Assembly (NCBI GenBank): GCA_049303795.1
Contig: JBAQNM010000006.1
Coordinates: forward strand, 717-64,716
Direction of reading: 5' to 3'
DNA: 64,000 bases
Origin: Candidatus Moraniibacteriota bacterium
GTDB taxonomy: Bacteria > Patescibacteriota > Minisyncoccia > Moranbacterales > UBA2206
The first letter of the stretch is position 1; each line of letters opens with the position of its first letter. The notes under the pieces are model-generated. The model had not been told where the DNA came from and ran no database searches. It saw only the letters and a list, made by a program, of their open reading frames with translations. Shown one piece after another: positions 43,976 to 61,110 of the stretch. Both the position numbers and the translations under genes were made by a program.

Positions 43976-44530
43976 ATGAAAAACAATGCCCTAAAAATAC
44001 TCTTTATCTATAATGGTATTTTTGTTTTTGCTTCGGGACTACTCGGACCTCTTTATGCTATTTTTGTTGGAACAATTGATAAAAATATAATCTCCATAAG
44101 CATATCCTGGTCAGTCTTCTTGCTATCAACTACATTATCAATGTTATTCCTTAGAAATTACGGAGATAAAGTAAGGGAAAAAGAATACTTCCTTTTAGCA
44201 GGATTTTTGATTAGGGCCCTTGTGTGGTTCACATTCCCTTTTATTTCCACAATCTTTTTTTTAATTATATTGCAAGCATTACTTGGTATTGGAGAAGCCC
44301 TTGGTTCTCCTACGTTTGATACTATTTTTGCTGAACATCTCGATGATGGCAGACATATCAGGGAATATACTGATTGGAAGTTAATCTCCAACATTGCTAG
44401 CGCATTTGCAATTATTCTAGGTGGAATAATAATCAAACGATTTGGCTTTTCAATACTATTTTACATAATGGGAGTCTTGTCTTTAATTTCCTTTTTTGGT
44501 ATTTTATTTAAACCGAGAAAGTTATTATAA
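43976..44530 (+). CDS. Hypothetical membrane protein, MFS-half-like (6 TM)
   Basis: 184 aa. LLGIGEALGSPTF resembles an MFS motif. Confidence 0.3.
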   Translation: MKNNALKILFIYNGIFVFASGLLGPLYAIFVGTIDKNIISISISWSVFLLSTTLSMLFLRNYGDKVREKEYFLLAGFLIRALVWFTFPFISTIFFLIILQALLGIGEALGSPTFDTIFAEHLDDGRHIREYTDWKLISNIASAFAIILGGIIIKRFGFSILFYIMGVLSLISFFGILFKPRKLL

Positions 44531-44549
44531 AAAACTAACCAATCTCCTT

Positions 44550-44903
44550 ATGTTTAAAATAATAAAAATTTCTCACACATTAGTCTGGATTGTTATGGTT
44601 TCGGCCTGTTTTTATATTCTATACGCTGGCCTCACCAATACATTTGATTTAATTTTAGTTATTTCTATAATCTTACTCACTATAGAATCATTGGTGCTCA
44701 TATTCAATAACTGGACTTGCCCTTTCACTCCACTAGCAGAAAAATACACCACTGAAAAAAGTCATAATTTTGATATTTATATTCCAAGTTGGCTAGCTAA
44801 ATATAATAAACTTATCTTTGGGATAATCTTTGTAATGGGGATGATGCTGGTTATTTTTAATTGGATAACAAAATTCAAAACAATATGCACAATATCTTTT
44901 TAA
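44550..44903 (+). CDS. Hypothetical small membrane protein
   Basis: Start moved to the internal ATG (MFKIIKISHTLVWIVMV) to avoid overlap. Three helices. Confidence 0.3.
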   Translation: MFKIIKISHTLVWIVMVSACFYILYAGLTNTFDLILVISIILLTIESLVLIFNNWTCPFTPLAEKYTTEKSHNFDIYIPSWLAKYNKLIFGIIFVMGMMLVIFNWITKFKTICTISF

Positions 44904-46714: not shown

Positions 46715-47473
46715 ATGAACAGAATAGAAAAAATATCCAAGGCACTCAATCTTTCAATTTACGAAGCAAAGATATATATTGCGCTCCAACAAAATGGCCC
46801 TCTCCTGATAAAAACACTTTCTAGACATGCAGAAATTCCAAGAACAACTATCTATACTCCGTTGCAAAAACTCCTCAAAAGGGGATTCGCTTCAAAAACT
46901 GTTTTTGGAAAACGTACATATTATTCCGCAATTCAACCAGAATATCTTCTTGGATTTATTGATGAACAAAAAAATCTTCTTCAGCAAACGATTTTAGAAT
47001 TAAATGGATTGGGAAAAATTCAGTCAGAAAAAAATAATTTTGAAACTACCTTTCATAGTGGAATAAACGGAATTAAAACTGCCGGATTATTTTTTTTACA
47101 TAATACCAAAGAAAAAACATGGTACTCTTTTGAAAACCTAGACTTAATAACAGAAAAGGTTAGTTTTGAGTTTGAAACATTTTATATAAAAGAGCGTGTC
47201 GCAAGAAAAATTAAATCAAAAATGATTCTTTCTTTCTCGGAAAAATCTTTTATATCTAATAATTTTTTAAAAAATGACATAAAAGACCTAAGGGAAACCG
47301 TATTGCTTTCTCAAAATCAATACCCCTTCCAAACAACAGTAGTTGCTACAAAAGGATTGGCACTTCTAATAAATCCCAATGAAAATCCTTTTGCTTTGTT
47401 AATTCGCAATAAACATTTAGCCGATACGTTTATCACTATCCATAAATGTTTATGGGGAAAATATAAAGCATAG
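46715..47473 (+). CDS. TrmB-like winged-helix transcriptional regulator, paralog 7 of 9
   Basis: N-terminal wHTH (EAKIYIALQQNGPLLIKTLSRHAEIPRTTIYTPLQKLLKRGF). Palindrome GACGA-tattg-TCGTC at 46681..46695 immediately upstream. Confidence 0.55.
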   Translation: MNRIEKISKALNLSIYEAKIYIALQQNGPLLIKTLSRHAEIPRTTIYTPLQKLLKRGFASKTVFGKRTYYSAIQPEYLLGFIDEQKNLLQQTILELNGLGKIQSEKNNFETTFHSGINGIKTAGLFFLHNTKEKTWYSFENLDLITEKVSFEFETFYIKERVARKIKSKMILSFSEKSFISNNFLKNDIKDLRETVLLSQNQYPFQTTVVATKGLALLINPNENPFALLIRNKHLADTFITIHKCLWGKYKA

Positions 47474-48302: not shown

Positions 48303-49046
48303 ATGCTTTTAGAAAAATTACAAATTGCTGGGTTATCAGAAAAAGAGGCTAAGGTATATGTAGCTGTTTTGGAATTGGGAGAGGCAACAATCGCCGAAAT
48401 TACAAAAAAATCCAAGATTAAAAGATCCACTATTTATGACATACTTAATACTTTAAAGGAAAAAGGCATAATAAGTCAGACTCGCCTCAACAAAAGACCT
48501 ATCTTTTTAGCAGAAAATCCAAAAAAAATGCTTGAAAAATTGGAGGAGAAAAAAAGAGGACTCGAAGAAGCTGTACCAGAGTTGCTTTCGATTATGAATC
48601 TTTTGGATAAGAAACCGAAAATTCGCTACTTTGAAGGAATAGAGGGAGTAAGAGAGGTTTTTGAAGATACACTTCGATATCCCAATCAAGAACTTCTAAC
48701 CTGGTTTTCTCATCCTAATATTAATCTTGGTGAAGATTTTTTTTGGAAATATTACAATCCAGAGCGCTTAAAAAGAAAAATTTGGGGCAGGGCAATCGCC
48801 ACTGATACTCCGCAAAACAGAGCTCTGAACGAAACTTTTGGAAATAAATGGCTAGCAAAAATGAAAATTTCCTCCAATAAATCTCTTCTTAAACTTGATA
48901 TCGAAATAAAGATTTATGGGAAAAATAAGGTTGGAATTGTTTCATACAAAGAAGATCTGGGAATTGTCATTGAAAGTAAAAAAATATATGACGGACTAAA
49001 AGCAATCTTTGAAGTAATGTGGGATTTATTGCCGGAAATAAAATAA
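48303..49046 (+). CDS. TrmB-like winged-helix transcriptional regulator, paralog 8 of 9
   Basis: N-terminal wHTH (EAKVYVAVLELGEATIAEITKKSKIKRSTIYDILNTLKEKGII). C-terminus ...LKAIFEVMWDLLPEIK. Confidence 0.6.
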   Translation: MLLEKLQIAGLSEKEAKVYVAVLELGEATIAEITKKSKIKRSTIYDILNTLKEKGIISQTRLNKRPIFLAENPKKMLEKLEEKKRGLEEAVPELLSIMNLLDKKPKIRYFEGIEGVREVFEDTLRYPNQELLTWFSHPNINLGEDFFWKYYNPERLKRKIWGRAIATDTPQNRALNETFGNKWLAKMKISSNKSLLKLDIEIKIYGKNKVGIVSYKEDLGIVIESKKIYDGLKAIFEVMWDLLPEIK

Positions 49047-49101: not shown

Positions 49102-49629
49102 ATGAAAAAAAAATCTGAAACTTTAAACTCAACCTTGCGAATTCTTGGCGTTGATCCCGGAACAGCCACGACTGGCTGGGCGATTATTGAAAAAAATGGC
49201 GATAAACTACTACCTTTAGCCTATGGCCACATCAGTACTTCGAAAGACAACACTGACGACGAAAGAATTTTTGAGGTTTCCAATGATCTTGCAAAAATAA
49301 TTCAAAAACACAAACCGACTGAAGCCGCTATTGAAAGTCTTTTCTTTTTTAAGAATCAAAAAACCGTCATCCAAGTTGCCCAGTCAAGAGGCGCAATTCT
49401 CTTGACTTTATGCCAAAATAGTGTTACAGTGTCCAGTTATACTCCGCTCCAAGTCAAGCAGGCCTTGACCGGATATGGACGAGCGGAAAAAAAACAAATG
49501 CAGTTGATGACTAAAAATATTCTGCATCTAAGCTCACTACCCAAGCCAGATGACGTGGCAGATGCATTGGCAATTGCGGTTTGTCATGTTAATAGCAGAT
49601 TTCTAATCAATTTAAAAAAACACTCATGA
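49102..49629 (+). CDS. ruvC: Crossover junction endodeoxyribonuclease RuvC
   Basis: ILGVDPGTATTGWAII start, catalytic Asp/Glu pattern, and 175 aa. Confidence 0.9.
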   Translation: MKKKSETLNSTLRILGVDPGTATTGWAIIEKNGDKLLPLAYGHISTSKDNTDDERIFEVSNDLAKIIQKHKPTEAAIESLFFFKNQKTVIQVAQSRGAILLTLCQNSVTVSSYTPLQVKQALTGYGRAEKKQMQLMTKNILHLSSLPKPDDVADALAIAVCHVNSRFLINLKKHS

Positions 49630-50291
49630 ACGAAATTAATTTCAGCCTCAGTCCAATCTTGACTTTCTTTTTGGATAAAGGCGTCCCTTTTGAAACAATA
49701 AAATTGATTTTAATGCTTCCGATTATCGCCACTTTTATCGCATTCCTCCGTCAAGTGGTTGGAATCAAAGCTTTTGGAATTTATACTCCCCTTCTTGTCA
49801 CTTTTGCTTTCCTAGCAACAAATGGGTTACGCTATGGTATTGCAATTTTTATCACAGTCATTCTCGTTGGAATGTTTATGCGAACCGCTTTGAAATCTTT
49901 TCGCTTGCTCTATCTTCCTCGCGTTGCAATTATGATCACAGTGGTAGCACTCTCTATTTTAATCATGCTTGCAATTGGCGGTGGCTTTAAAAGAACTGGC
50001 CTTGCTTCTGTTTCAATCTTCCCCATTTTGATTATGATCACTCTAGTTGAAAAATTTATCGCTGTTCAAATTGAAAAAGGCGACCGCGCCGCAATCATTT
50101 TGGCGATTGAAACGCTGATCATCTCTATTGTTGGTTTTTATATTGCCAGCTGGCAAGCTCTTATTCATTTTATTGCTTATTACCCTTGGGTTATTCTTTT
50201 AACAATCCCTGTTAATATTGCTTTTGGTAAATGGACAGGGCTACGCCTTACCGAATATCTGCGTTTTGGACAAATCATAAAAAGAACTTAG
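49626..50291 (+). CDS. Polytopic (about 7 TM) membrane protein. Candidate 7TM partner of the RimK-like ATP-grasp / retropepsin system.
   Basis: 221 aa, almost entirely hydrophobic helices. Start overlaps the ruvC stop (ATGA). Immediately precedes the ATP-grasp/protease fusion. Confidence 0.45.
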   Translation: MNEINFSLSPILTFFLDKGVPFETIKLILMLPIIATFIAFLRQVVGIKAFGIYTPLLVTFAFLATNGLRYGIAIFITVILVGMFMRTALKSFRLLYLPRVAIMITVVALSILIMLAIGGGFKRTGLASVSIFPILIMITLVEKFIAVQIEKGDRAAIILAIETLIISIVGFYIASWQALIHFIAYYPWVILLTIPVNIAFGKWTGLRLTEYLRFGQIIKRT

Positions 50292-50300
50292 GTTTATTAT

Positions 50301-51731
50301 ATGTTTGAACTTATCAAAAAAAGCTTCATCTGTTATAAAGCAGGTCGCAATGTATTAGGAATGAATTCCAGAAATTTGGAATATATTCGACCATTTAATC
50401 GCATTAATGCTAAAAAAATTGCTGATGATAAGCTTCTAAGCAAAAGGGTTCTTAAAAAAGCCGAGATTGCTGTTCCAAAACTTATTGGAAAAATATCAGA
50501 TCTTGCTAGTTTAGATAATTTTGATTGGCAAACCCTGCCAGATAGTTTTGTTTTAAAACCCAATAAAGGTTTTGGCGGAGAAGGTATTGTCGTTGTTTAT
50601 GGTAAGAAAAAAAATAGATCTGATGCTTGGATAAAAGCCGATGGAACTCTTATTACCATTGAAGATTTAAAAAGCCATGTTCGCAATATTATTGATGGAT
50701 CATTTTCTTTATCTGGCGTTCCTGATATTGCTTTTTTTGAAGAACGCTTAAAACTGTTAAAGCTTTTCAAGCCCTACGCCTTCAAAGGAATTCCTGATAT
50801 TCGTATTATTGTTTTCAATAAAATGCCTATCATGGCCATGCTTCGCTTGCCCACTAGAGAGTCCAATGGAAAAGCCAATTTGGCCCAAGGAGCAATTGGT
50901 GTCGGAATCGACCTTGCCTCTGGGACAACTACAACAGCAGTAATGGGAAAGAAAAAAATTATTGAATATCTTCCCGGCACAAGACTGCTACTTTCCGGAA
51001 TTAAAATTCCCTATTGGATGGATATTCTAAACCTCGCTGTTCGCTCACAAGAAATTTCCGGACTTGGTTTTCTCGGCGCCGACATTGCGATTGATAAAGA
51101 ACTAGGGCCAGTAATTTTGGAATTAAACGCTCGTCCTGGTCTTGCAATTCAAGTTGCCAATCTTGACGGTTTAAAGGGTCGCCTAAAAAAAGCAGCTGGA
51201 ATAAAAATCAAGACAATTAAAAAAGGTATCAGAGTTGGCATGGATCTTTTTGGAGGAGAAATCGAAGAAGAGCTGGAAGAAATTTCTGGAAAAAAAGTAA
51301 TAGGTGCAATAGAAAAAGTGAAGCTAATTGGAAAAGATGAAAAAGAAATTGAAGTGGAAGCTAAAATAGACACTGGTGCTTATTCATCTTCGATTGATGA
51401 AGAATTAGCTAAGGAATTGGGGTTTTCCGAATTAATTGAAAAATTTGCAACAATCGATCTATCAAAATACACTATTACAGCCGAGAATGAAACCCTAATA
51501 AAAGAAGATGTTTTAAAAAATTATAAAAATCAAATGCCTTTACTTGAAGATGTGGCTGTGATTTTCTCAGCTAGTGGCTCATCAATCCGTCCAATGGTGA
51601 AAATTTCTTTTATTTTAGATGCAATAAACATTGAAACTAAGGTTAATATAACAGATCGAAAAACACTAGCCTACCCAATGCTTATTGGAAGAAGAAATTT
51701 GGGTAAGTTTTTAATTAATATAAATAAGTAA
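50301..51731 (+). CDS. Alpha-L-glutamate-ligase-related (RimK-like) ATP-grasp protein fused to a C-terminal retropepsin-like (putative Zn-protease family, DTGA) domain
   Basis: ATP-grasp motifs (FVLKPNKGFGGEGI, ILELNARPGLAIQVAN). C-terminal VIGAIEKVKLIGKDEKEIEVEAKIDTGAYSSSID resembles retropepsin-like aspartyl protease domains found next to RimK-like ligases. Confidence 0.55.
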   Translation: MFELIKKSFICYKAGRNVLGMNSRNLEYIRPFNRINAKKIADDKLLSKRVLKKAEIAVPKLIGKISDLASLDNFDWQTLPDSFVLKPNKGFGGEGIVVVYGKKKNRSDAWIKADGTLITIEDLKSHVRNIIDGSFSLSGVPDIAFFEERLKLLKLFKPYAFKGIPDIRIIVFNKMPIMAMLRLPTRESNGKANLAQGAIGVGIDLASGTTTTAVMGKKKIIEYLPGTRLLLSGIKIPYWMDILNLAVRSQEISGLGFLGADIAIDKELGPVILELNARPGLAIQVANLDGLKGRLKKAAGIKIKTIKKGIRVGMDLFGGEIEEELEEISGKKVIGAIEKVKLIGKDEKEIEVEAKIDTGAYSSSIDEELAKELGFSELIEKFATIDLSKYTITAENETLIKEDVLKNYKNQMPLLEDVAVIFSASGSSIRPMVKISFILDAINIETKVNITDRKTLAYPMLIGRRNLGKFLININK

Positions 51732-51735
51732 CCTC

Positions 51736-52692
51736 GTGAAAAAAGTTCTCATTCTTTTCGGAAAATCCGATTGGGAAAATAATACCCTTTTTTTAAATAA
51801 AGATTTTCAAGCATCCTATGAGTGTCTATATTCTTTGGCTAAAGAAAATGGCATTCAAATGTATCGCGCCTCCTATGAATGGTATGATTATGAAAGTCAT
51901 GTTTTTAAATATGCTTGGACATATGAAGACGCCTCTGGATGGAAAAGAGTTTATAATATTTCGCCTGATTTAATTTATGACAAAACAAGGGCTAGTATGG
52001 AAACTTATTTTAAAAAAGAACTCATTGCCAAGCGCTATCGTTTTGTTAATAGTTTGAGATTTACTTACATGCTAGATGACAAACTGACAACTAGCATGAT
52101 TTTTCACAAATGGAGCAAAAAAAGCTGGATTGTTAATAATCCAGAAAAGTTAAAAAAAATTCTTCCCAAAATAAACTCGCGTAGATTTGTGATCAAGCCA
52201 ATTTCTGAAAGTGGTGGGAAAAACGTTCAAATTCTTGAAAGAGAAGAGGCTTTAGAAAAAGTAACATTTAGTAACGACTATATTATTCAAGAATTTATTG
52301 ATTCTTCTTCTGGCATTCCTGGTATAAGCGAAAGCATGCATGATTTAAGACTTGTTTTTGTAAATAATAAAATCAGTTATGCCTACATGCGAGAACCAGC
52401 AGAAGGAAATTATCTAGCTAATCTTTCTCAAGGAGGATCACTTTCTATCGTTCCAACAAACGACATTCCAAAATCATTACACCCAATCATTCGTTGCGTT
52501 AATAGAGTTTTTGAAACATTTAACCCGCGAATTTTCTCAATCGATTTTATGTTTGATGAAAAAAAAAGACCTTGGATAGTTGAACTCAATTCTATGCCTG
52601 GACTTTATTTTACTCCACAAGAAAAACCTTATATGCTAGAATTATACCAAGAAATTATTGAAGTATTTTTGAAAAAATTAGAACTAAAATAA
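51736..52692 (+). CDS. ATP-grasp family ligase
   Basis: FVIKPISESGGKNV and WIVELNSMPGL motifs. Confidence 0.55.
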   Translation: MKKVLILFGKSDWENNTLFLNKDFQASYECLYSLAKENGIQMYRASYEWYDYESHVFKYAWTYEDASGWKRVYNISPDLIYDKTRASMETYFKKELIAKRYRFVNSLRFTYMLDDKLTTSMIFHKWSKKSWIVNNPEKLKKILPKINSRRFVIKPISESGGKNVQILEREEALEKVTFSNDYIIQEFIDSSSGIPGISESMHDLRLVFVNNKISYAYMREPAEGNYLANLSQGGSLSIVPTNDIPKSLHPIIRCVNRVFETFNPRIFSIDFMFDEKKRPWIVELNSMPGLYFTPQEKPYMLELYQEIIEVFLKKLELK

Positions 52693-52720
52693 ATTTTAAT
52701 TAAAGTTTATCTCAAAATTT

Positions 52721-53674
52721 ATGATTTCCTTAAAAGGCAAAAAAATAGCTATCTCAACACCAGTTATCGGAGGAATAGGAGGGGCAGAAAGAAACATTTT
52801 CAGTGTTATAAAAGCTTGTCATGATTGCAAAATTGATATTTATACAAACAATGTTATCGACAGTGAGTACATACCAAAAGTAAAAAATTTAACTATTTTT
52901 ATAAATAAAATTCAGAATTGGAAAACAAAAAAAAGAAAGCGGTACGATCTATATTTACACTATAACTTTCTTGATTCTACTTACTTAGGCGATAAAATAA
53001 ACTGCACGTTAAAAATATTAAATCCTTGCGGAAAAGAAGTTTTCGACAAAGAAGATCTTTTTGATTTTATAATTAGCCAATCACCCGATGGCATGAAATT
53101 ATTTAAAAATAAAAAGAAAAATATTTTACTTAGCCAGCCAATATGCATTGTTTCTGATAAAATAGAGCGTCCAGAGGGACTACCTGAAAAATATTTTTTA
53201 ACCGTTTTTAATCCCTACGGGGGAGAAAATAATCCAGTTAAGGGACAAGATATACTTTATGAGATATCCCAGAAGCTACCTTTCAAAATCGTTTGGTGCT
53301 ATAGTTTAAAAACTAAAAAATGGAAAGGGTTAAAAAAGACCTCTAAAAATATTATATATTTAGAATCAATACCTCAATCGCAATTAGCTTATCTTTATAA
53401 AAACACACTGGCGTATATTTCTTTTTCTAGAAAGGAGGGCTTTGGCTGGTCAATCGCAGACGCTCTGTTATATCAAAAATCCATAATTTCTAAGAAGGTT
53501 GGCGTGCTATCCTATTATAAAAAACCTCCTGAAGGAGTGTTTTTCTATAAAAATAAAGAAGAGCTAATAAGCCTTACAAAAAAAACTGATTTTTCCAAAA
53601 TAAAACCTCTCTATGATTTAGATTTTATCAAAGTTGAAAAATTCAGAGAAGAAATAGCTTCGCTTTTAAAATAA
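52721..53674 (+). CDS. Glycosyltransferase, GT-B fold (family 4-like)
   Basis: C-terminal SRKEGFGWSIADALLYQKSIIS matches the GT1/GT4 EX7E region. Confidence 0.55.
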   Translation: MISLKGKKIAISTPVIGGIGGAERNIFSVIKACHDCKIDIYTNNVIDSEYIPKVKNLTIFINKIQNWKTKKRKRYDLYLHYNFLDSTYLGDKINCTLKILNPCGKEVFDKEDLFDFIISQSPDGMKLFKNKKKNILLSQPICIVSDKIERPEGLPEKYFLTVFNPYGGENNPVKGQDILYEISQKLPFKIVWCYSLKTKKWKGLKKTSKNIIYLESIPQSQLAYLYKNTLAYISFSRKEGFGWSIADALLYQKSIISKKVGVLSYYKKPPEGVFFYKNKEELISLTKKTDFSKIKPLYDLDFIKVEKFREEIASLLK

Positions 53675-53698
53675 ACTTAATCAATTTAACTTTAAAAA

Positions 53699-54634
53699 AT
53701 GAGTGCATCTAAAAATCCACAAGTTTCAATTATTACTCCCGTTTTCAATCGAGAAGAATTAATCATTGAATGCATAGAAAGTATTCAAAACCAAGATTAT
53801 AAAAATTATGAACATATTATTGTCGATGATTGCAGTACTGACAATACCGCTGAAGTCGTCAAAGCTTATGCCAAAAAAGATCCAAGGATAGTTTTTGTAA
53901 AAAGTCCCAAAAATAGTGGTGGGAATATTGGAAAGGTAAGAAATATTGGAATAAAAATAGCTAAAGGAGAACTGATTGCTTTTTTAGATTCTGATGACAT
54001 GTGGGAAAAAGAAAAACTAAGTCTACAAATAACTCACTTACAGGAAAACAAACTCGATTTTTCCTATCACCCATTATCACGATTTATGAAAAACACTGAC
54101 GACACTCCAATGAGTTTTTGGGGAAGAGATTGCTTTCAAAAAGATTATTTTCGAGGATTATTTTTAAGTAATTTTATCTCAACTTGCTCAGTTTTAACAA
54201 AAAAGAAGGTACTTGAAGAAGTTGGTCTTTTTGACGAATCTCTTAAATATTCTGAGGATTATTGCTTATGGCTTCTAATCGCTTTGAAAAATTATAAAAT
54301 TGGTTTTCTGAACAATGTACTTGGCCGTTTCCGAAGAAGCGATCATGGAAATGTAAATGCTGTTTTAAATAAAAAGGAAAAACATGAATGCAGTATTAGA
54401 CTAAGAGAAAAAATTCTTTTTGAGCATTCACCTGAATCACTTCCCAGACTAATGAAAAGCGACCTAATCCATAATTATATTTATTATTATTATGAATTAA
54501 TAAAAACTGAGGATTCTCCTGAAAGAAAAAAAGAACTTTTTGTAAAAATTATTGACAGATTATTTGAGTTAAAGATATCACATCTATTTATTGAGGAATT
54601 GGAGTTTTTGACAAAATTAAGAAAAAATAATTAA
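53699..54634 (+). CDS. Glycosyltransferase family 2
   Basis: VSIITPVFNRE...IIVDDCSTDNT...FLDSDDMW (DxD) GT-A signature. Confidence 0.8.
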   Translation: MSASKNPQVSIITPVFNREELIIECIESIQNQDYKNYEHIIVDDCSTDNTAEVVKAYAKKDPRIVFVKSPKNSGGNIGKVRNIGIKIAKGELIAFLDSDDMWEKEKLSLQITHLQENKLDFSYHPLSRFMKNTDDTPMSFWGRDCFQKDYFRGLFLSNFISTCSVLTKKKVLEEVGLFDESLKYSEDYCLWLLIALKNYKIGFLNNVLGRFRRSDHGNVNAVLNKKEKHECSIRLREKILFEHSPESLPRLMKSDLIHNYIYYYYELIKTEDSPERKKELFVKIIDRLFELKISHLFIEELEFLTKLRKNN

Positions 54635-54635
54635 C

Positions 54636-55424
54636 ATGGAAAAAACTTTTTTATTGCCCAATAAAATAATCTGGCGAAGAGAAACAAGCAAAAATACTTC
54701 CGCTTGTTTTTATCCTTCTTTTTATAAAGACCTCGTGAAAAGAACGCCTTTTTTTCAAGAAAATTTTGATGTGCAATTTGTTGATGCTGATGAAAAAAAT
54801 ATGCGAGAATATTTTTTACCTCTTTATACTGAAGAAATAATGGCTCGCGAAGATTTCAAATTAGATCGAAATAAAATAACTGCTGATTTAATAAAAAAAG
54901 TTTCGGAAAATAAAAATTACAAATTCATGTTTATTTTCTATGAAAAAGAATTAGTCTCAGCTACGCTTTTTTCCATAAAAGATTCTGGTTTATTTGTTGG
55001 TTATCGAGCAATGAAAAAAAATTTCGATAGAAAATTAAGTCACAAGGCAACCGTGAGTCATTGGAACGAACAAATGATTTTTGATTTCGGCAAAAAAAAT
55101 AATGTCAGCTTTTTCTCTTACGGCAAAGATACACATCCTTTTCTAGCTAAAACCAATATTGGACGTCCGCTTTATAAAATTAAAACTGGCATGAAACCAA
55201 GATGCCCCATAGACAAAACTTCATTCGCAATGGAAGAAATTAGAGAGGAAGATTTAATTAAAAAAACAGAGCCCACACTTTTTTTCACTAATCCTGATAA
55301 AAATGGTTTGTATAAGTGTTGTTATTTATATTACCCAAAAGATTTTTTGGATGACTCCTATATTCATGAATTTAATAAAATTATGTCTTGGTCTGGTTTA
55401 GTTTTTAATCCTATAGCCTACTAA
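54636..55424 (+). CDS. Hypothetical protein (possibly acyl/aminoacyl-transferase fold) within the ATP-grasp/GT cluster
   Basis: ORF only. 1-nt spacing from the upstream GT2 gene implies an operon. Confidence 0.3.
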   Translation: MEKTFLLPNKIIWRRETSKNTSACFYPSFYKDLVKRTPFFQENFDVQFVDADEKNMREYFLPLYTEEIMAREDFKLDRNKITADLIKKVSENKNYKFMFIFYEKELVSATLFSIKDSGLFVGYRAMKKNFDRKLSHKATVSHWNEQMIFDFGKKNNVSFFSYGKDTHPFLAKTNIGRPLYKIKTGMKPRCPIDKTSFAMEEIREEDLIKKTEPTLFFTNPDKNGLYKCCYLYYPKDFLDDSYIHEFNKIMSWSGLVFNPIAY

Positions 55425-55431
55425 CAATAAA

Positions 55432-56892
55432 ATGAAAAAATATATTATCAACGATTTAGCGTCGTTAGAAAAATACGCTAAAACTATAAAAAATCCGATC
55501 ATTGCCGTAGGCGCTCGTCCATTCAATTTAACTATCGGCGTATATGATTTATTCAATCATTTTGAAGTTTTGGCCTGTAGGCGGTCAACAAAAGAAGCGT
55601 CTCTCTTGGAAGAAAAAATTAAAATTACCTATCTAAATGCTAAAAAAGAATTTAAGAATACAAAAAATTTCAAAACATACATCCCCCATATGCCGAAAGA
55701 TATCTTTAAAAACAAGGAGATAATGGATTACCTAGAAGCATATCGAGAAAAACCAGCCCTTCTTTTTTTCAGAATGTCGGAAGAACTGGAAAATATTTTA
55801 AAAAATAAAAAAGTTATTCCAGTCGGCACTGATTTTCGCATGTATGATAAATATGAAAACAAACTTAACTTTCAAAAACTACTTGAGCAATTGAAAATTT
55901 CCACTCCAAAATTTATAAAAGAAAAAGCTGCCAACTTAAATTACGCAAAACTAAAAAAAGAATTGGGTGATAAGTTTGTTGTTCAACTTCCAGTCACAGC
56001 ATTAGGCGCAGGAACTTTTTTTATTTTCGAAAAAACTGATTTTGAGAAAATGCTAAAAAAGGAAAATATCAAAAAAGCTATTGCTAAAAATGTTGATACA
56101 AAAATAGCCCGCTATATCGAGATGAGTTGCTCTCCTAGCATGACCGTTTGTGTCACAAAATTTGGAATCCTGCACACTAATCTTCAAAATCAAATAATCG
56201 ATGCCAAAGAAGTTCTTGAAAAAGGGAGAAGGTCTGGAGTTTTTTGCGGACACGACTGGAATAAAATTTTTAAAAAAGAAATTGAAGACCAGGCAATAAA
56301 AATTGCTGAAAAAATTGGCACATATCTCAAAGAAAAAGAAAACTTTGAAGGAATTTTTGGACTTGATTTTGTTCTAGAAAAAGAAACAAACAAGCTCTAT
56401 CCTATTGAAGCTAATGTCCGACTACTTGGATCATTTCCAATTTTACCAATGGTGCAAAAAAATGCTAACCAACCTTCCATTCAAGGATTACAAATTATTG
56501 AAAGTCTTAATAAAAAAGATTACGTATTGGACATCCAAGCACTTAATACTTTAATGCACCAACCAAAATCAGGCGCACACCTAAATATTCACGCCAGAAA
56601 CAAGCAACCAGTCTATGTTTCAGGAAGTATCAAACCAGGAATTTATAACATTGACGTAAAAAATAACAAAGTCTCTTATGCAAGAAAAGGTATATTTTTT
56701 AACGATCTAAAAAAACCAAACGAAATTCTACTTGTAAATGTGCCTTATAAAAATCGTGTTTTTGAACAACACAATGCATTATGCAAAATTATCACCAAAA
56801 GCACTTTTTTGAATGATAATGATAAGCTGAACAAATTAGCTAAATCAATGGTTAATTATGCCTATAAAAAGCTAGCCTTAAAGGCTATTTAA
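55432..56892 (+). CDS. ATP-grasp-like domain protein (486 aa)
   Basis: FVVQLPVTALGAGTFF and GIFGLDFVLEKETNKLYPIEANVRL resemble ATP-grasp B/C-domain motifs. Confidence 0.45.
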   Translation: MKKYIINDLASLEKYAKTIKNPIIAVGARPFNLTIGVYDLFNHFEVLACRRSTKEASLLEEKIKITYLNAKKEFKNTKNFKTYIPHMPKDIFKNKEIMDYLEAYREKPALLFFRMSEELENILKNKKVIPVGTDFRMYDKYENKLNFQKLLEQLKISTPKFIKEKAANLNYAKLKKELGDKFVVQLPVTALGAGTFFIFEKTDFEKMLKKENIKKAIAKNVDTKIARYIEMSCSPSMTVCVTKFGILHTNLQNQIIDAKEVLEKGRRSGVFCGHDWNKIFKKEIEDQAIKIAEKIGTYLKEKENFEGIFGLDFVLEKETNKLYPIEANVRLLGSFPILPMVQKNANQPSIQGLQIIESLNKKDYVLDIQALNTLMHQPKSGAHLNIHARNKQPVYVSGSIKPGIYNIDVKNNKVSYARKGIFFNDLKKPNEILLVNVPYKNRVFEQHNALCKIITKSTFLNDNDKLNKLAKSMVNYAYKKLALKAI

Positions 56893-56986
56893 ATAAATAC
56901 ACCAAAGCATAAAATTCCCTTGATAAATTCGCTAAAAAAAGCTAAACTATATATTGATTAAATCAATATTAATTTATTCAAATTTT

Positions 56987-59578
56987 ATGCGAAATATTTT
57001 TTCTCCTCAACTTTTTAACCCTTCCAAAAAAAGCTGGTTCAAAAGAAAATGGAATTGGAAGGCTATCTTTAAATTTATTGGGATTGGCCTTGGGATTGGC
57101 TTTATTGCAACTGTTTTATTGATAATCAGTGTTTTCGCTTATTTTTATAAAGACCTACCCAATCCAAACAACCTCAATACTCGTTTCATTGCTGAATCAA
57201 CTAAAATCTACGACCGCACTGGTGATCATCTGCTCTATGATGTTCATGGTGAAGAAAAACGTACTCAAATACCTTTTTCTGATATGCCTGATGTGCTCAA
57301 ATTTGCCACAATCGCATTGGAAGATCAAAACTTCTATACTCACCATGGAATACGCTTTAGCTCTATATTAAGAGCTGTTTTAAAAAATGTCCTAAATCGT
57401 GGAGTTGCTCAAGGTGGTTCAACTATTACTCAACAATTAATCAAACAGTCTATTCTCACATCTGAGAGAACTTTTTCACGAAAAATTAAAGAGGTCATTC
57501 TTTCTTTGGAATTAGAAAGAAAATTTTCCAAAGATGAAATATTAGCCATGTATCTAAATCAAATCCCTTATGGCTCAAATGCTTATGGTTCAGAAGCTGC
57601 TGCTCAAACTTTTTTTGGTAAAAACACTAAAGAATTAACTTTAGATGAATCGGCTCTTCTTGCCTCTCTTCCTCAAGCTCCTTCCTACTATTCACCCTAT
57701 GGAAGTCACACTGATGCCTTAAGAGGACGTCAACTATACGCTTTAACCCAAATGGCTAAATTAGGCTACATCACTGAAGAGCAGTCAGTAGAAGCTAAAC
57801 AGATTGACACGCTTTCTAAAATAAAAGTTGCTTCAGATAAGAATATTTTTGCTCCTCATTTTGTAATGTATATTAAAGAATATTTGAGTAATAAATACGG
57901 AGAGCAAGCGCTAGAGCAAGGTGGTTTAAAAGTCTACACAACGCTTGATTGGGATAAACAAAAGGCAGCTGAAAAAGCTGTTGCTGAAGGTGCAGAAAAT
58001 AATGCTAAACTATATAACGCTGGAAATGCAGCTCTTGTTGCTATGGATCCAAAAACAGGACAAATACTAGCCATGGTTGGAAGTAAGGATTATTTTAGAG
58101 AAAGTGAACCAAAAGGTTGTATATCGGGAAAGAATTGCGTTTTCGAAGCAAATGTCAATATTGCCACTTCACTTCTTCAACCAGGCTCTTCTTTTAAACC
58201 TTACGTTTATTTAACCGCTTTTGAAAAAGGCTACACACCAGAAACAAACCTTTGGGATGTTGACACTAATTTTTCCACTGATGATGGGAAGGAATATAAT
58301 CCTAAAAATTATGACGGAAAAAATAGTGGCCTATTACAAATGAAAGACGCGCTTGCTAGATCTCTCAATGTTCCTGCTGTCAAAACCCTCTATCTTGCTG
58401 GCGTAAATAATTCAGTTGATAATGCTCGAAAGATGGGAATAACTACTCTCACCCAACCTGATCGATATGGGTTATCCTTAGTGCTTGGAGGAGGTGAAGT
58501 AAGACTATTAGATCATGTTAATGCTTTTTCTACTTTTGCTACTGGCGGAATTCATCATGATAAAACAGCTATTTTGCGTATTGAAAATAGCAAGGGCGAC
58601 ATATTGGAAAAATATAACCAAAATGAAGGCAACCGTGCAATTGAAGAAAAATATATTGCCATGATTGATTATATTCTTTCTACAAATAGCTTAAGAGCAC
58701 CTGTTTTTGGTGAAAAAAATCCATTAAGCTTTACCGATCGTCCTGTTGCCGCCAAAACTGGAACCACTAATGAATGGCGTGATGGTTGGACAATTGGTTA
58801 CACTCCATCAATTGCAGTTGGTGTTTGGGCGGGAAATAATGATCACTCTATAATGAAACCAGGTGCTGATGGTGTTTTTGTGGCGGCTCCAATTTGGCGC
58901 AGTTTCATGGATCAAGTTTTATTAAATTATACCGTCGAACAATTTCCTAAATATGAACCTGAAGAAACAGGAAAAGACGTGCTAGATGGAAAACTTGAAA
59001 TGAAAAAAGAATTAAAGGTTTGTAAAATACCAGGTACTAAAAATGATTATTGCCTGGCAAGTTCAGCTTGTCCCGATGATGAGGTAGAAAAAAAGAAATT
59101 TTCTGATTCACATAGTATTTTGTATTATGTAAATAAAGATGACCCGCGCGGTGAAGATCCAAAAAATCCCGAAAAAGATCCCCAATTTAAAAATTGGGAA
59201 AAGGCGATAGAGAAATGGCTAGATAATGAAAAAGGTTATTCCACTAACTCGGCGCCAACAAAAGAGTGTGAGGATGATGACTTTTCTGATTATGAACTTG
59301 AGATAGAATCAATTTCTCCTTCCGACGGAGAAACCATAACCTCATCTTCTTTTAATATTTCAGTAAAAATCTCCGCTCCCTATGGGGTAAAAAAAGCTGA
59401 AATAAGCATAGATGGAGATAATATTGCCTCTAGTGATGACGAATCTTTTAGTGCTTCCTATTCTGTGCCAGATAATAAAAAGAATTCCAGTTTAAAAATA
59501 TCTGTTTATGCCGTAGATGAAAAGGGTAATTCGGATTCAAAAGAAATCACGGTTAAGACAGAAATTCCTACACCATAA
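56987..59578 (+). CDS. Class A penicillin-binding protein (transglycosylase plus transpeptidase) with a C-terminal Ig-like extension
   Basis: GT51 motifs (ALEDQNFYTHHGI, GGSTITQQL). Transpeptidase SGSSFKP (SxxK) and KTGT. Start placed at the ATG (MRNIF); the track begins at an upstream TTG. Confidence 0.85.
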   Translation: MRNIFSPQLFNPSKKSWFKRKWNWKAIFKFIGIGLGIGFIATVLLIISVFAYFYKDLPNPNNLNTRFIAESTKIYDRTGDHLLYDVHGEEKRTQIPFSDMPDVLKFATIALEDQNFYTHHGIRFSSILRAVLKNVLNRGVAQGGSTITQQLIKQSILTSERTFSRKIKEVILSLELERKFSKDEILAMYLNQIPYGSNAYGSEAAAQTFFGKNTKELTLDESALLASLPQAPSYYSPYGSHTDALRGRQLYALTQMAKLGYITEEQSVEAKQIDTLSKIKVASDKNIFAPHFVMYIKEYLSNKYGEQALEQGGLKVYTTLDWDKQKAAEKAVAEGAENNAKLYNAGNAALVAMDPKTGQILAMVGSKDYFRESEPKGCISGKNCVFEANVNIATSLLQPGSSFKPYVYLTAFEKGYTPETNLWDVDTNFSTDDGKEYNPKNYDGKNSGLLQMKDALARSLNVPAVKTLYLAGVNNSVDNARKMGITTLTQPDRYGLSLVLGGGEVRLLDHVNAFSTFATGGIHHDKTAILRIENSKGDILEKYNQNEGNRAIEEKYIAMIDYILSTNSLRAPVFGEKNPLSFTDRPVAAKTGTTNEWRDGWTIGYTPSIAVGVWAGNNDHSIMKPGADGVFVAAPIWRSFMDQVLLNYTVEQFPKYEPEETGKDVLDGKLEMKKELKVCKIPGTKNDYCLASSACPDDEVEKKKFSDSHSILYYVNKDDPRGEDPKNPEKDPQFKNWEKAIEKWLDNEKGYSTNSAPTKECEDDDFSDYELEIESISPSDGETITSSSFNISVKISAPYGVKKAEISIDGDNIASSDDESFSASYSVPDNKKNSSLKISVYAVDEKGNSDSKEITVKTEIPTP

Positions 59579-60381: not shown

Positions 60382-61110
60382 ATGAAAAAAGAACTACAAA
60401 AGGCACTCTCATCTCTGGGAATAAACGAAAAACAAACCAGTCTATATTTGGCTTGTTTGGAATTGGGCTCAGCCAGTATTCAAGAATTAGCACAAAAATC
60501 CGGCATCAAAAGAACCAGCATTTATAATTTTCTTAAAGACCAGAAATTTAAAGAATTATTTTCTGAAATTGAAGAATCAGGCAAGGTTTTGTTAGTCCCC
60601 CAAAATCCTAAGATGCTCGTAGAAAAAGCCAGAAAAAATTTAGAAGAAATTAAATTTGCCTTGCCGGAACTTATGAGTATTTTTAATTTGCCTTCCGAGA
60701 AGCCACGCGTCCGATTTTATCAAGGTGAGGAAGGAATTAAAACGGCCTACCAAGATCTTCTTTTGGAAGGAAAAACCGTTTATGGTTTTTCCGATTATGA
60801 AAAAATGTTTGAGAGTATGCAACATTTTGATATGTGGAGAATTCCCAAGGAAAGAGTTAAAAGAAATATTAAGTTTTTTTGCATTGCAAAAAATGGCCCA
60901 ATGGGCCAAGAGGTGAAAAGAAAAGATAAGGAAGAATTACGCGAAACAAAACTCGTAGAAAATATTCAATTTGAAACAGAGATAAATATTTATGGCAATA
61001 AAGTGAGTCTCATAAGTTTTCGTGAACCTTTCGCCTGCGTGATCATAGAAGATCCCGCTATCTCTCAAACTCTAAAAAGCGTCTGGCAAAGTTGGTGGAA
61101 TTTGCTTTAA
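60382..61110 (+). CDS. TrmB-like winged-helix transcriptional regulator, paralog 9 of 9
   Basis: N-terminal wHTH (QTSLYLACLELGSASIQELAQKSGIKRTSIYNFLKDQ). C-terminus ...LKSVWQSWWNLL. Confidence 0.6.
   Translation: MKKELQKALSSLGINEKQTSLYLACLELGSASIQELAQKSGIKRTSIYNFLKDQKFKELFSEIEESGKVLLVPQNPKMLVEKARKNLEEIKFALPELMSIFNLPSEKPRVRFYQGEEGIKTAYQDLLLEGKTVYGFSDYEKMFESMQHFDMWRIPKERVKRNIKFFCIAKNGPMGQEVKRKDKEELRETKLVENIQFETEINIYGNKVSLISFREPFACVIIEDPAISQTLKSVWQSWWNLL

What the first reader, a model, noticed from the sequence alone, without database searches (positions are those of the whole stretch)
49626..59578. 7TM / RimK-like ATP-grasp / retropepsin-like module fused and embedded in a cluster with two more ATP-grasp enzymes, GT4, GT2 and PBP1A
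A polytopic membrane protein (49626) is followed by an ATP-grasp ligase whose C-terminus carries a DTGA retropepsin-like domain (50301-51731). Together these reproduce the conserved but functionally uncharacterised three-component system (7TM protein + alpha-L-glutamate-ligase-like + putative Zn-protease), here with ligase and protease fused. Downstream, transcribed in the same direction with tiny gaps, are a second ATP-grasp ligase, GT4- and GT2-family glycosyltransferases, an unknown protein, a third ATP-grasp-like protein and a class A PBP. The combination suggests synthesis of a peptide-decorated (ATP-grasp, non-ribosomal amide bonds) glycan, or cell-wall stem-peptide modification, coupled to peptidoglycan polymerisation. 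This is possibly a lineage-specific envelope polymer.
Basis: partly seen in the sequence, partly recalled or inferred. Interest (0 to 1): 0.6.

Follow-up and report, generated by a model that had tools for sequence, protein, structure and literature searches.

The report
Fused ligase-protease membrane module, Moranbacteria
An ultra-small (CPR) bacterium carries a compact version of the recently described Rlo/Rim system: a membrane protein next to one enzyme that both joins and cuts amino-acid chains. Behind it lies a set of accessory enzymes that differs between close relatives, and the neighbouring cell-wall synthase looks like a conserved flank, not a proven partner.

Summary
All ORFs sit at the stated coordinates and profiles support nearly every assignment.

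- **Core:** a 7TM_transglut membrane protein, then an ATPgrasp_ST/TIGR02291 ligase fused to a PF05618 retropepsin with an invariant DTGA.
- **Downstream:** a RimK/TTL-like ATP-grasp, a borderline GT4, a GT2, a third ATP-grasp and a class A PBP. The "unknown" 262-aa protein models confidently as a Fem/MprF/ATE1-like tandem-GNAT fold.
- **Source:** a Candidatus Moranbacteria (CPR) genome.
- **Known relative:** the three-component system is no longer wholly uncharacterised. It is RloABC of Pseudomonas aeruginosa (2025). Here RloB lacks its transglutaminase domain, and RloC and RloA are fused and cytoplasmic.

Across 118 related loci:

| Neighbour of the fusion gene | Frequency |
|---|---|
| 7TM gene directly upstream | 70/72 |
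| Extra ATP-grasp gene within 2.5 kb downstream | 55/63 |
| PBP1A downstream | 9/9 close relatives, 1/21 distant |

MATCAP, YdjC, a second ATP-grasp or the 7TM domain are physically fused to the core in other lineages. The genes between the fusion and PBP1A form a low-GC, mix-and-match cassette.

The most likely function is membrane-associated synthesis and trimming of an acidic peptide with lineage-specific decorations. Coupling to peptidoglycan polymerisation is not supported. This is a new variant of a known kind, of moderate interest.

The parts
49626..50291 (+). 221-aa polytopic membrane protein, equivalent to the 7TM half of RloB only. It has no transglutaminase or other extracytoplasmic domain. 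Its ATG overlaps the ruvC stop (ATGA).
   Evidence: PF14402 scores 112 bits, matching profile positions 55-246. NF052267 RloB matches only positions 312-507 of 508. About 7 helices. 59-86% identical across Moranbacteria. Directly upstream of the fusion gene in 70/72 loci. No significant PDB fold match.
50301..51731 (+). 476-aa cytoplasmic fusion protein: RloC-type ATP-grasp ligase + acidic linker + RimB/RloA-type retropepsin.
   Evidence: No TM segment was found by the hydropathy scan and the N-terminus is not hydrophobic. 58-82% identical across Moranbacteria. 1868 cluster representatives at E<=1e-3.
50346..51197 (+). ATP-grasp ligase domain (aa 16-299), ATPgrasp_ST / TIGR02291 type.
   Evidence: PF14397 224 bits. 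TIGR02291 291 bits (cut-off 314). RimK family only 46 bits. The 'LE(L/V)NARPG' motif is conserved.
51243..51293 (+). Conserved Glu-rich linker, DLFGGEIEEELEEISGK (aa 315-331), directly before the protease domain.
   Evidence: Near-invariant in 30 Moranbacteria sequences and recognisable in relatives 42-50% identical. Its role (pseudo-substrate or autoprocessing site) is inferred only.
51297..51725 (+). Retropepsin-like aspartic protease domain (aa 333-475). Catalytic D357 lies in DTGA (nt 51369-51380).
   Evidence: PF05618 44 bits. NF052264 RloA3 44.6 bits. PDB 9g59, 9g58 and 2pma. D(T/S)GA in 30/30 sequences. K at D-2, the R of the 'RP' motif, the R of the 'DR' motif and the C-terminal 'IGR/K..L' motif are conserved.
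51736..52692 (+). AG2: RimK/TTL-like ATP-grasp ligase. It belongs to subfamily 'A' of at least 17 subfamilies found in this position.
   Evidence: PF08443 56 bits and PF03133 34.5 bits. PDB RimK 7qyr, 5zct, 4iwx. Subfamily analysis.
52721..53674 (+). Possible GT-B (GT4-like) glycosyltransferase. Weak assignment.
   Evidence: PF00534 26.5 bits against a cut-off of 26.4. No NCBIfam or PDB sequence hit. Orthologue only in L002.
53699..54634 (+). Soluble GT2 (GT-A) glycosyltransferase.
   Evidence: PF00535 131 bits. TuaG-like, 131 bits, far below the cut-off. No TM segment. Orthologue in L009.
54636..55424 (+). 262-aa orphan protein with a predicted tandem-GNAT fold. The fold is closest to aminoacyl-tRNA-dependent transferases (Sbb17/Sba18, ATE1, FemX, MprF).
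   Evidence: No Pfam, NCBIfam or PDB sequence hit. Only 22 homologues among 5.8 billion proteins. AF2 pLDDT 91.3. Foldseek E 3.7e-8, TM about 0.5.
55432..56892 (+). AG3: 486-aa CPS/biotin-carboxylase-type ATP-grasp protein.
   Evidence: PRK06524 E 1e-33. Homologous over its full length to the C-terminal half of the triple fusion P0149 (E 9e-49) and to the gene after the fusion in L038 (E 1e-56).
56954..59578 (+). Class A PBP with a C-terminal Big_7 domain. It is the conserved downstream flank of the cassette in Moranbacteria and some other CPR. A functional link is not shown.
   Evidence: TIGR02074 518 bits. Downstream of the module in all 27 genome-contig loci that reach that far. Among metagenome loci it is downstream in 9/9, 3/5 and 1/21 by divergence class.
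49102..49629 (+). RuvC. It is the conserved upstream flank and overlaps the 7TM start. Treated as a synteny anchor, not a functional component.
   Evidence: NF000711 213 bits. Upstream in 14/15, 6/8 and 5/24 loci by divergence class. In L035 and L038 the module lies between ruvC and ruvA/ruvB.

Best explanation
This is a CPR-type Rlo/Rim system: a membrane-associated machine that writes and trims a peptide.

Shown:
- A 7TM protein (the RloB membrane half only) is invariably paired with a cytoplasmic protein in which an RloC-type ATP-grasp amino-acid ligase is fused to a RimB/RloA-type retropepsin. The two domains are joined by a conserved Glu-rich linker and the catalytic motifs are intact.
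- At least one further amide-bond ligase gene nearly always follows.
- In other lineages these accessory enzymes, or the 7TM domain itself, are fused to the core.
- The accessory set is a low-GC cassette that is swapped between close relatives. Here it holds a RimK/TTL-like ligase, a possible GT4, a GT2, a Fem/MprF-fold protein and a CPS-type ATP-grasp.

Inferred mechanism:
1. The ATP-grasp domain docks on the cytoplasmic face of the 7TM protein and ligates or polymerises an acidic, Glu-rich, alpha-linked peptide.
2. The fused retropepsin acts as a dimer and cuts these chains. This would control their length and create new primers. RimB does this for RimK, and a cryptic hydrolytic site does it for cyanophycin synthetase.
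3. The cassette enzymes add lineage-specific amino acids and sugars.
4. The 7TM protein passes or anchors the product to the envelope.

RuvC and PBP1A are conserved flanks between which cassettes are exchanged. They are not demonstrated partners.
For: - Domain identities.
- Catalytic motifs are invariant. The basic residues K(D-2), R of 'RP' and R of 'DR' are conserved and align with RloA-orthologue structures. RloA uses conserved Lys/Arg residues to bind poly-Glu and cleaves 8E or longer (PMC12239564).
- RimB stimulates poly-alpha-Glu synthesis by RimK, and an active RimB-RimK hybrid exists (PMC11957791). CphA1 makes its own primers by hydrolysis (PMC9262961).
- Linkage: 7TM upstream in 70/72 loci and an ATP-grasp downstream in 55/63.
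- Fusions in other lineages: grasp+retropepsin+MATCAP, +YdjC, +second ATP-grasp, 7TM+grasp and grasp+Transglut_core.
- Related cassettes contain proteins like the G and M domains of cyanophycin synthetase, MATCAP peptidases, glycosyltransferases, YdjC and GNAT.
- At least 17 ATP-grasp subfamilies are recombined across 27 loci. Cassette GC is 0.30-0.32 against 0.35-0.40 for the flanks. L001 and L002 both have about 81% identical cores but different cassettes.
- P. aeruginosa genetics: loss of rloB or rloC suppresses loss of rloA1-3, so RloBC make what RloA removes.
Against: - No substrate or product is known for any RloC-type ligase, including in Pseudomonas.
- Here the protease is cytoplasmic, whereas RloA is secreted, so the logic may differ from Rlo.
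- The 7TM fold matches no solved transporter. Export is therefore an assumption. It could instead be a sensor or scaffold.
- The Glu preference is inferred from family resemblance and a few conserved basic residues. Their mapping onto RloA K46/R114/R137 could not be verified.
- TIGR02291 scores below its trusted cut-off.
- The Fem-like assignment rests on fold only (TM about 0.5).
- The GT4 call is borderline.
Confidence: 0.45

Rival explanations
1. The whole block from the 7TM gene to PBP1A is one cell-wall operon. The ATP-grasp and Fem-like enzymes would build a side chain or cross-bridge on peptidoglycan precursors, or a peptide-decorated wall glycan, which PBP1A then polymerises.
For: - Same strand, 61-bp gap to PBP1A and no convincing terminator.
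- PBP1A lies downstream in all Moranbacteria loci that reach that far and in some other CPR.
- The orphan protein has a Fem/MprF-like fold.
- ATP-grasp ligases acting on peptidoglycan precursors are known, for example the D-Asp ligase of Enterococcus (own knowledge).
- Rlo mutants of P. aeruginosa have cell-shape and beta-lactam phenotypes.
- An LCP gene lies next to PBP1A in L032.
Against: - PBP1A adjacency decays with divergence (9/9, 3/5, 1/21), while the 7TM and ATP-grasp links persist.
- In L035 and L038 the module is followed by ruvA/ruvB.
- An opposite-strand tyrS (L031, L032, L072, L081) or an AbiE toxin-antitoxin pair (L001) separates the module from PBP1A.
- The genome has a separate MurE-FemX pair.
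- The orphan protein shows no sequence or profile similarity to that FemX.
Confidence: 0.15
2. A purely cytoplasmic writer/eraser system for protein tails, like RimK-RimB. The ligases would add Glu or other residues to the C-terminus of a protein such as ribosomal protein S6. The retropepsin and MATCAP-type peptidases would remove them. The 7TM protein would be only a membrane sensor or regulator.
For: - All enzymes, including the protease, have no TM segment by hydropathy scan and are taken to be cytoplasmic.
- RimK, TTL and MATCAP families together resemble the tubulin-tail code.
- A RimBK hybrid precedent exists.
Against: - The grasp domain is RloC-type, not RimK-type (291 bits against 46 bits).
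- The 7TM partner is near-universal and is sometimes covalently fused. Extracytoplasmic PKD or transglutaminase domains occur on it in other lineages.
- Glycosyltransferases, a YdjC sugar deacetylase and GalT in the cassettes point to carbohydrate chemistry.
- Hypervariability of this kind is typical of surface structures.
Confidence: 0.2
3. A cytoplasmic storage or osmotic-buffer polymer, poly-Glu or cyanophycin-like. The ligase and protease domains would interconvert free amino acid and polymer, with the 7TM protein acting as a membrane-tension or osmotic sensor.
For: - Proteins like the G and M domains of cyanophycin synthetase occur in related cassettes.
- Antagonistic activities are fused in one protein.
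- The Rlo phenotype in Pseudomonas is hypo-osmotic sensitivity, and its authors raise glutamate/polyglutamate homeostasis as a possibility.
Against: - A storage polymer gives no reason for strain-level cassette diversification or for glycosyltransferases.
- The cyanophycin-like genes are absent from this window.
- There is no evidence that the 7TM protein senses anything.
Confidence: 0.1

Closest known systems
RloABC of Pseudomonas aeruginosa (Lormand et al. 2025, PMC12239564)
   Same: - The three protein families match: PF14402 7TM, ATPgrasp_ST/TIGR02291 ligase and PF05618 retropepsin with DTGA.
- The genes are adjacent and on the same strand.
- The protease domain aligns to RloA-orthologue crystal structures and keeps the basic residues near the active site.
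   Different: - The 7TM protein lacks the periplasmic inactive-transglutaminase domain.
- The protease has no signal peptide. It is fused to the C-terminus of the cytoplasmic ligase, so it cannot act outside the cell.
- One to five extra ligase, glycosyltransferase or peptidase genes always follow.
- The host is a CPR bacterium, whereas 96% of RloB hits were reported from Proteobacteria.
RimK-RimB and the RimBK hybrid (Pseudomonas fluorescens, Desulfotalea psychrophila; PMC11957791)
   Same: - A cytoplasmic ATP-grasp Glu ligase works with a cytoplasmic retropepsin that cuts poly-Glu and stimulates polymer synthesis.
- A natural fusion of the two activities exists.
   Different: - The domain order is reversed: RimBK has the protease at the N-terminus, here it is at the C-terminus.
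- The grasp domain is RloC-type, not RimK-type.
- This system has an obligatory 7TM partner.
- There is no evidence that ribosomal protein S6 is the target.
Cyanophycin synthetase CphA1 (PMC9262961)
   Same: - A multi-site polyamide synthetase that combines ATP-grasp and Mur-ligase chemistry with a built-in hydrolytic site that makes primers.
- Proteins like its G and M domains occur in sister cassettes (L001, L003, L014, L018).
   Different: - Those genes are not in this window.
- The hydrolase here is a retropepsin.
- The components are separate genes, not one polypeptide.
- A membrane partner is present.
Variable surface-polysaccharide loci flanked by conserved genes, such as O-antigen loci or the pneumococcal cps locus that lies between pbp2x and pbp1a (own knowledge)
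   Same: - A low-GC, mix-and-match cassette sits between strongly conserved flanks.
- Cassette content does not follow the phylogeny of the flanks.
   Different: - There is no priming transferase, flippase, polymerase or ABC exporter.
- The dominant enzymes are amide-bond ligases and peptidases, not glycosyltransferases.

Membership tests
RloABC system | RloC-type ATP-grasp (PF14397 / TIGR02291) | tested here: met
   PF14397 scores 224 bits against a cut-off of 31. TIGR02291 scores 291 bits, just below its 314 cut-off, so this is a family-level match and not an equivalog.
RloABC system | RloB = inactive transglutaminase domain fused to 7 TM helices | tested here: not met
   Only the 7TM half is present. 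The protein is 221 aa and matches RloB profile positions 312-507 of 508. No transglutaminase-like ORF or paralogue was found elsewhere in the window.
RloABC system | RloA = secreted retropepsin-like protease with a signal peptide | tested here: not met
   The retropepsin domain and DTGA are present. However, the domain is the C-terminal part of a 476-aa protein with no TM segment and a non-hydrophobic N-terminus.
RloABC system | Genes adjacent in one operon | tested here: met
   There is a 9-bp gap between the 7TM gene and the fusion gene. The adjacency holds in 70/72 loci.
RloABC system | Poly-Glu cleavage and a role in hypo-osmotic or envelope stress | not testable with these tools
   Only conserved basic residues near the active site were seen.
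RimK/RimB (RimBK) | RimK-family ATP-grasp (TIGR00768) | tested here: not met
   The fusion scores 46 bits and AG2 scores 52 bits against a cut-off of 143.
RimK/RimB (RimBK) | Cytoplasmic retropepsin partnered with or fused to the ligase, protease at the N-terminus in RimBK | tested here: inconclusive
   The protease is cytoplasmic and fused, but in the opposite order (grasp at the N-terminus, protease at the C-terminus).
RimK/RimB (RimBK) | Substrate is ribosomal protein S6 with a C-terminal Glu | not tested
   rpsF was not looked for in the window.
Fem/MprF/ATE1 aminoacyl-tRNA-dependent transferases (for ORF 54636-55424) | Tandem GNAT-like fold | tested here: met
   AF2 pLDDT 91.3. Foldseek hits to Sbb17, Sba18, ATE1, FemX and MprF at E 4e-8 to 1e-5, TM about 0.4-0.53.
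Fem/MprF/ATE1 aminoacyl-tRNA-dependent transferases (for ORF 54636-55424) | Sequence-profile membership (FemAB, DUF2156, ATE families) | tested here: not met
   No Pfam, NCBIfam or PDB profile hit. hhalign probability against the window's own FemX-like protein is 0.4%.
Fem/MprF/ATE1 aminoacyl-tRNA-dependent transferases (for ORF 54636-55424) | Use of aminoacyl-tRNA as donor | not testable with these tools
   The fold is shared with acetyl-CoA-dependent tandem GNATs such as VipF.
Conventional surface-polysaccharide gene cluster | Polyprenyl-phosphate priming transferase plus Wzx/Wzy, an ABC exporter or a membrane synthase | tested here: not met
   No cassette protein has a TM segment. Profiles give only soluble GT2 and a possible GT4.
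Peptidoglycan synthesis/modification operon | Linkage to PBP or Mur genes that persists across lineages | tested here: not met
   PBP1A lies downstream in 9/9, 3/5 and 1/21 loci by divergence class. The alternative downstream neighbours are ruvA/ruvB.

The most novel reading that the evidence does not exclude
CPR bacteria may use this locus to make a strain-variable, non-ribosomally built glyco-peptide surface polymer. It would be assembled by ATP-grasp ligases and a possible aminoacyl-tRNA-dependent transferase. It would be primed and trimmed by a built-in retropepsin and exported by a 7TM protein with no solved structural relative. Cassettes would be swapped between conserved flanks, as in O-antigen or capsule loci. 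That would make it a major determinant of how these episymbionts present themselves to hosts and phages, and it would show what the Rlo system makes.
Probability: 0.2. Interest if true: 0.75.

Novelty: new variant of a known kind. Interest (0 to 1): 0.45.

Why it matters
- **Clue to the Rlo product.** Rlo-type systems affect antibiotic tolerance, biofilm formation and cell shape in Pseudomonas, yet the product of the RloB/RloC pair is unknown. The CPR version is a stripped-down form: no transglutaminase domain, and ligase and protease in one chain. Its neighbours and fusion partners are informative. They include RimK-like and cyanophycin-synthetase-like ligases, MATCAP peptidases, glycosyltransferases and a sugar deacetylase. 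These point to a peptide-based, possibly glycosylated product, and they offer a simpler construct for biochemistry.
- **Importance to the host.** The core proteins are 58-86% identical across Moranbacteria. The locus takes up 7-10 kb of what are typically very small genomes (own knowledge). This suggests it matters to these organisms.
- **Caution about synteny.** Tight, same-strand linkage to a class A PBP can be inherited gene order and need not reflect function.

Tried and rejected
- **Promoter and terminator scan** of 47.4-60.4 kb: no better than shuffled sequence (44 against 49.9 promoters, 10 against 8.3 terminators). The operon is inferred from spacing only.
- **PDB sequence searches** for the orphan protein, AG3 and the GT4-like protein found nothing meaningful.
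- **Profile-profile comparison** of the orphan family with the window's FemX-like protein: 0.4% probability. BLASTP found nothing either.
- **Fold search of the 7TM model against PDB:** best E 1.7 (an Rnf complex chain), which is not significant.
- **Paralogue search** in the rest of the window for the retropepsin, 7TM or ligase domains: none found.
- **Rejected:** treating PBP1A and RuvC as components. Their linkage decays with divergence.
- **Not achieved:** exact mapping of K46/R114/R137 of P. aeruginosa RloA onto the fusion. The solved chains appear to be orthologues with different numbering, so only motif-level correspondence is claimed.

Full report
**1. What is in the sequence**

Between 49.1 and 59.6 kb, ten ORFs lie on the + strand with gaps of -4 to 61 bp.

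| Coordinates | Assignment | Support |
|---|---|---|
| 49102-49629 | RuvC | NF000711, 213 bits |
| 49626-50291 | 221-aa membrane protein | PF14402 7TM_transglut, 112 bits |
| 50301-51731 | ATP-grasp + retropepsin fusion | aa 16-299: PF14397 224 bits, TIGR02291 291 bits (cut-off 314). aa 333-475: PF05618 44 bits (cut-off 27), weaker RloA1-3 hits |
| 51736-52692 | RimK/TTL-like ATP-grasp (AG2) | PF08443 56 bits, PF03133 34.5 bits |
| 52721-53674 | Possible GT4 | PF00534 26.5 bits (cut-off 26.4), borderline |
| 53699-54634 | GT2 | PF00535 131 bits |
| 54636-55424 | Orphan protein | No family hit |
| 55432-56892 | ATP-grasp (AG3) | PRK06524, E 1e-33 |
| 56954-59578 | Class A PBP with Big_7 | TIGR02074, 518 bits |

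- The tenth ORF, upstream at 48303-49046, is a TrmB-family regulator (PF01978).
- The membrane protein covers only RloB profile positions 312-507 of 508, so the transglutaminase domain is absent.
- The protease domain aligns to the RloA-orthologue structures 9g59 and 9g58 and to 2pma, with DTGA in register. DTGA is at aa 357-360.
- A hydropathy scan finds no TM segment in any of the enzymes and their N-termini are not hydrophobic. Only the 7TM protein and PBP1A are membrane proteins.
The caveats are the weak GT4 call and the identity of the orphan protein (section 5).

**2. Source and known counterpart**

- The closest homologues are annotated Candidatus Moranbacteria/Moraniibacteriota, a CPR (Patescibacteria) group.
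- NCBIfam now names the three families after RloABC of P. aeruginosa.
- In that system, RloA is a secreted retropepsin that cleaves runs of at least 8 Glu. RloB is an inactive-transglutaminase 7TM protein. RloC is a cytoplasmic ATP-grasp.
- Loss of rloB or rloC suppresses the hypo-osmotic, beta-lactam, biofilm and cell-shape defects of the triple rloA mutant (PMC12239564).
- The related RimK-RimB pair polyglutamylates ribosomal protein S6 and trims the added tail. RimB stimulates poly-alpha-Glu synthesis by RimK, and a natural RimB-RimK hybrid is active (PMC11957791).
- Three differences are clear here. RloB is reduced to its membrane half. RloC and RloA are fused in the order grasp then protease, the reverse of RimBK. 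The protease must be cytoplasmic.

**3. Conservation of the core**

- In 31 genome contigs the 7TM protein is 59-86% identical to the window's copy across Moranbacteria. The fusion is 58-82% identical. The single Spechtbacteria locus, L031, is lower (38% and 47%).
- These features are conserved:
  - D(T/S)GA, present in 30/30 sequences
  - the Lys two residues before the catalytic Asp
  - the Arg of an "RP" motif
  - the Arg of a "DR" motif
  - the C-terminal "IGR/K..L..FLID" strand
  - the ATP-grasp "LE(L/V)NARPG" motif
- A Glu-rich linker, DLFGGEIEEELEEISGK, sits directly before the protease. It is almost invariant in Moranbacteria and recognisable in relatives only 42-50% identical.
- An exhaustive search found 1868 cluster representatives at E<=1e-3. 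Among the best 150:
  - About 30 align in one stretch through to the protease C-terminus.
  - About 46 are 740-960 aa long forms.

**4. Gene neighbourhood**

In the 27 genome-contig loci where both the fusion and PBP1A are on the contig, the order is 7TM, fusion, a 1.9-6.1 kb variable stretch, then PBP1A. RuvC lies directly upstream wherever the contig reaches that far. The outer flanks are not conserved.

The variable stretch is a mosaic. It contains:
- one to four RimK-like ATP-grasp genes, falling into at least 17 subfamilies at 45% identity or more
- proteins like the G domain and the M domain of cyanophycin synthetase
- MATCAP/QEGLA peptidases
- GT4, GT2 and GT8 glycosyltransferases
- YdjC deacetylase, GNAT, methyltransferase and a RimK+DUF3541 fusion

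Other points:
- The window's cassette type (AG2, GT4-like, GT2, orphan, AG3) recurs only in L002 and, in part, in L009.
- L001 has a core as similar as L002's (82% against 81%) but an unrelated cassette.
- Cassette genes have GC 0.30-0.32. The flanking genes have GC 0.35-0.40.

**5. Fusion evidence and the orphan protein**

Relatives of the fusion protein carry extra covalently attached domains:
- MATCAP, in three of the roughly 46 long forms that were checked (P0121, P0133, P0136)
- YdjC (P0123)
- a second ATP-grasp (P0149)
- the 7TM domain (P0247)
- a transglutaminase core (P0233)

The window's AG3 is homologous over its full length to the extra ATP-grasp of P0149 (E 9e-49). It is also homologous to the gene that follows the fusion in L038 (E 1e-56).

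The orphan 262-aa protein has only 22 homologues among 5.8 billion proteins.
- It models at pLDDT 91.
- Its fold is closest to the aminoacyl-tRNA-dependent peptide synthases Sbb17 and Sba18, and to ATE1, FemX and MprF. It also resembles acetyl-CoA-dependent tandem GNATs (E 4e-8 to 1e-5, TM about 0.4-0.53).
- There is no sequence or profile support for this, so the donor substrate stays open.

The 7TM model (pLDDT 79) has no significant match in the PDB.

**6. Is PBP1A part of it?**

I added 87 more loci from metagenomes and from exact-protein look-ups. Linkage was then stratified by identity of the fusion protein to the window's copy.

| Fusion identity | 7TM upstream | ATP-grasp within 2.5 kb downstream | PBP1A downstream | RuvC upstream |
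|---|---|---|---|---|
| >=55% | 25/25 | 16/16 | 9/9 | 14/15 |
| 45-55% | 13/14 | 9/10 | 3/5 | 6/8 |
| <45% | 32/33 | 30/37 | 1/21 | 5/24 |

- In L035/L036 and L038 the module sits inside yebC-ruvC-[galT-7TM-fusion-ligases-MATCAP]-ruvA-ruvB.
- In L031, L032, L072 and L081 an opposite-strand tyrS separates the module from PBP1A. In L001 an AbiEi/AbiEii pair does so.
- The window has its own MurE-FemX-like pair at 10240-12494.
- The 7TM protein and the extra ligases therefore behave as functional partners. RuvC and PBP1A behave as inherited flanks.
- Co-transcription of PBP1A in this genome is possible but was not tested. The consensus scans were uninformative.

**7. Most likely mechanism**

*Shown:* the parts list, the fusion, the intact catalytic motifs, the location of all enzymes (no TM segments by hydropathy scan), and the comparative links above.

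*Inferred:*
- The RloC-type domain ligates an acidic, Glu-rich peptide at the membrane, next to the 7TM protein.
- The 7TM+grasp fusion places the ligase at the cytoplasmic C-terminus of the membrane domain.
- The fused retropepsin dimer cuts the chains. This would limit their length and generate primers. Precedents are RimB with RimK and the cryptic hydrolytic site of cyanophycin synthetase (PMC9262961).
- Cassette enzymes add lineage-specific residues and sugars.
- The 7TM protein transfers or anchors the product to the envelope.
- The mosaic, low-GC cassette between conserved flanks resembles variable surface-antigen loci.

Confidence is about 0.45 for this outline, and much lower for any specific chemistry.

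**8. Rivals**

| Rival | Confidence | Main weakness |
|---|---|---|
| Peptidoglycan side-chain or wall-glycan operon coupled to PBP1A | 0.15 | The synteny decay in section 6 |
| Purely cytoplasmic protein-tail writer/eraser with the 7TM protein as a sensor | 0.2 | Near-universal 7TM partner, its extracytoplasmic domains in other lineages, and the sugar enzymes |
| Cytoplasmic storage or osmotic polymer | 0.1 | Does not explain cassette diversification |

**9. Novelty and score**

- The families are annotated in public databases, and the Rlo and Rim systems are described.
- The library searches and text searches of the two key papers turned up no description of the following:
  - the CPR architecture, meaning a 7TM-only RloB with an RloC-RloA fusion
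  - the conserved acidic linker
  - the hypervariable ligase, peptidase and glycosyltransferase cassette
  - the fusions to MATCAP, YdjC or a second ATP-grasp
- I rate this a new variant of a known kind, with interest 0.45. It is useful for working out what Rlo-type systems make, but the function here remains inferred.

Noticed in passing
window 51243-51293: A conserved Glu-rich linker (DLFGGEIEEELEEISGK) sits directly upstream of a protease domain whose relatives cut poly-Glu. It might be a pseudo-substrate or an autoprocessing site, as in retroviral polyproteins.
   Followed up: partly
window 10240-12494 (- strand): MurE (TIGR01085, 400 bits) is directly followed by a FemX-like aminoacyl transferase (NF047883, 91 bits). 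This looks like the genome's own peptidoglycan side-chain or cross-bridge enzyme pair, and it lies far from the finding.
   Followed up: partly
L035/L036 6780-17414; L038 6939-19132; window 38176-39180: In other CPR lineages the whole module is inserted inside the yebC-ruvC...ruvA-ruvB operon, after a galT gene. In this window ruvB lies 10 kb upstream of ruvC, so the ruv genes have been split.
   Followed up: partly
L034 10001-12801: This contig has an archaeal-looking gene set (PTH2, TruD, an intein-containing DUF87 ATPase). It carries a 7TM+ATPgrasp_ST fusion followed by a separate Transglut_core protein, and no retropepsin was detected.
   Followed up: no
L031 14037-15254; L032 10818-12005; L072; L081: tyrS lies on the opposite strand between the module and PBP1A in several lineages. 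This is curious next to TTL-like ligases and MATCAP (tyrosine carboxypeptidase) homologues, but it is probably the housekeeping gene.
   Followed up: no
L001 15816-17163: An AbiEi/AbiEii type IV toxin-antitoxin pair is inserted just upstream of PBP1A. The interval therefore accepts unrelated cargo.
   Followed up: no
window 46715-47473, 48303-49046, 60382-61110: Three TrmB-family regulator paralogues flank the block. TrmB genes also lie upstream in L007, L020, L030 and L037, so they may regulate it.
   Followed up: no
window 43976-44903: Two short overlapping ORFs. The first matches only the first half of the MFS_1 profile. This may be a frameshifted or split MFS transporter gene.
   Followed up: no
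L032 1870-3420: Here the 7TM protein carries N-terminal PKD domains (516 aa) in place of a transglutaminase domain. The extracytoplasmic part of this family is therefore interchangeable.
   Followed up: no
window 32918-35974; 40048-41898; 6424-7482: Three other genes of note: a 1018-aa protein with two T2SSE (PilB-like) ATPase stretches, a 616-aa Lamin-tail/PKD surface protein, and a PGA_cap-family protein next to HtpX.
   Followed up: no
window 49626-50291: The AF2 model of the 7TM protein (pLDDT 79) has no significant structural neighbour in the PDB. Many charged residues within or beside the helices are invariant (R42, K48, R86, R93, R99, E142, E150, E162, R207, E210, R213).
   Followed up: partly
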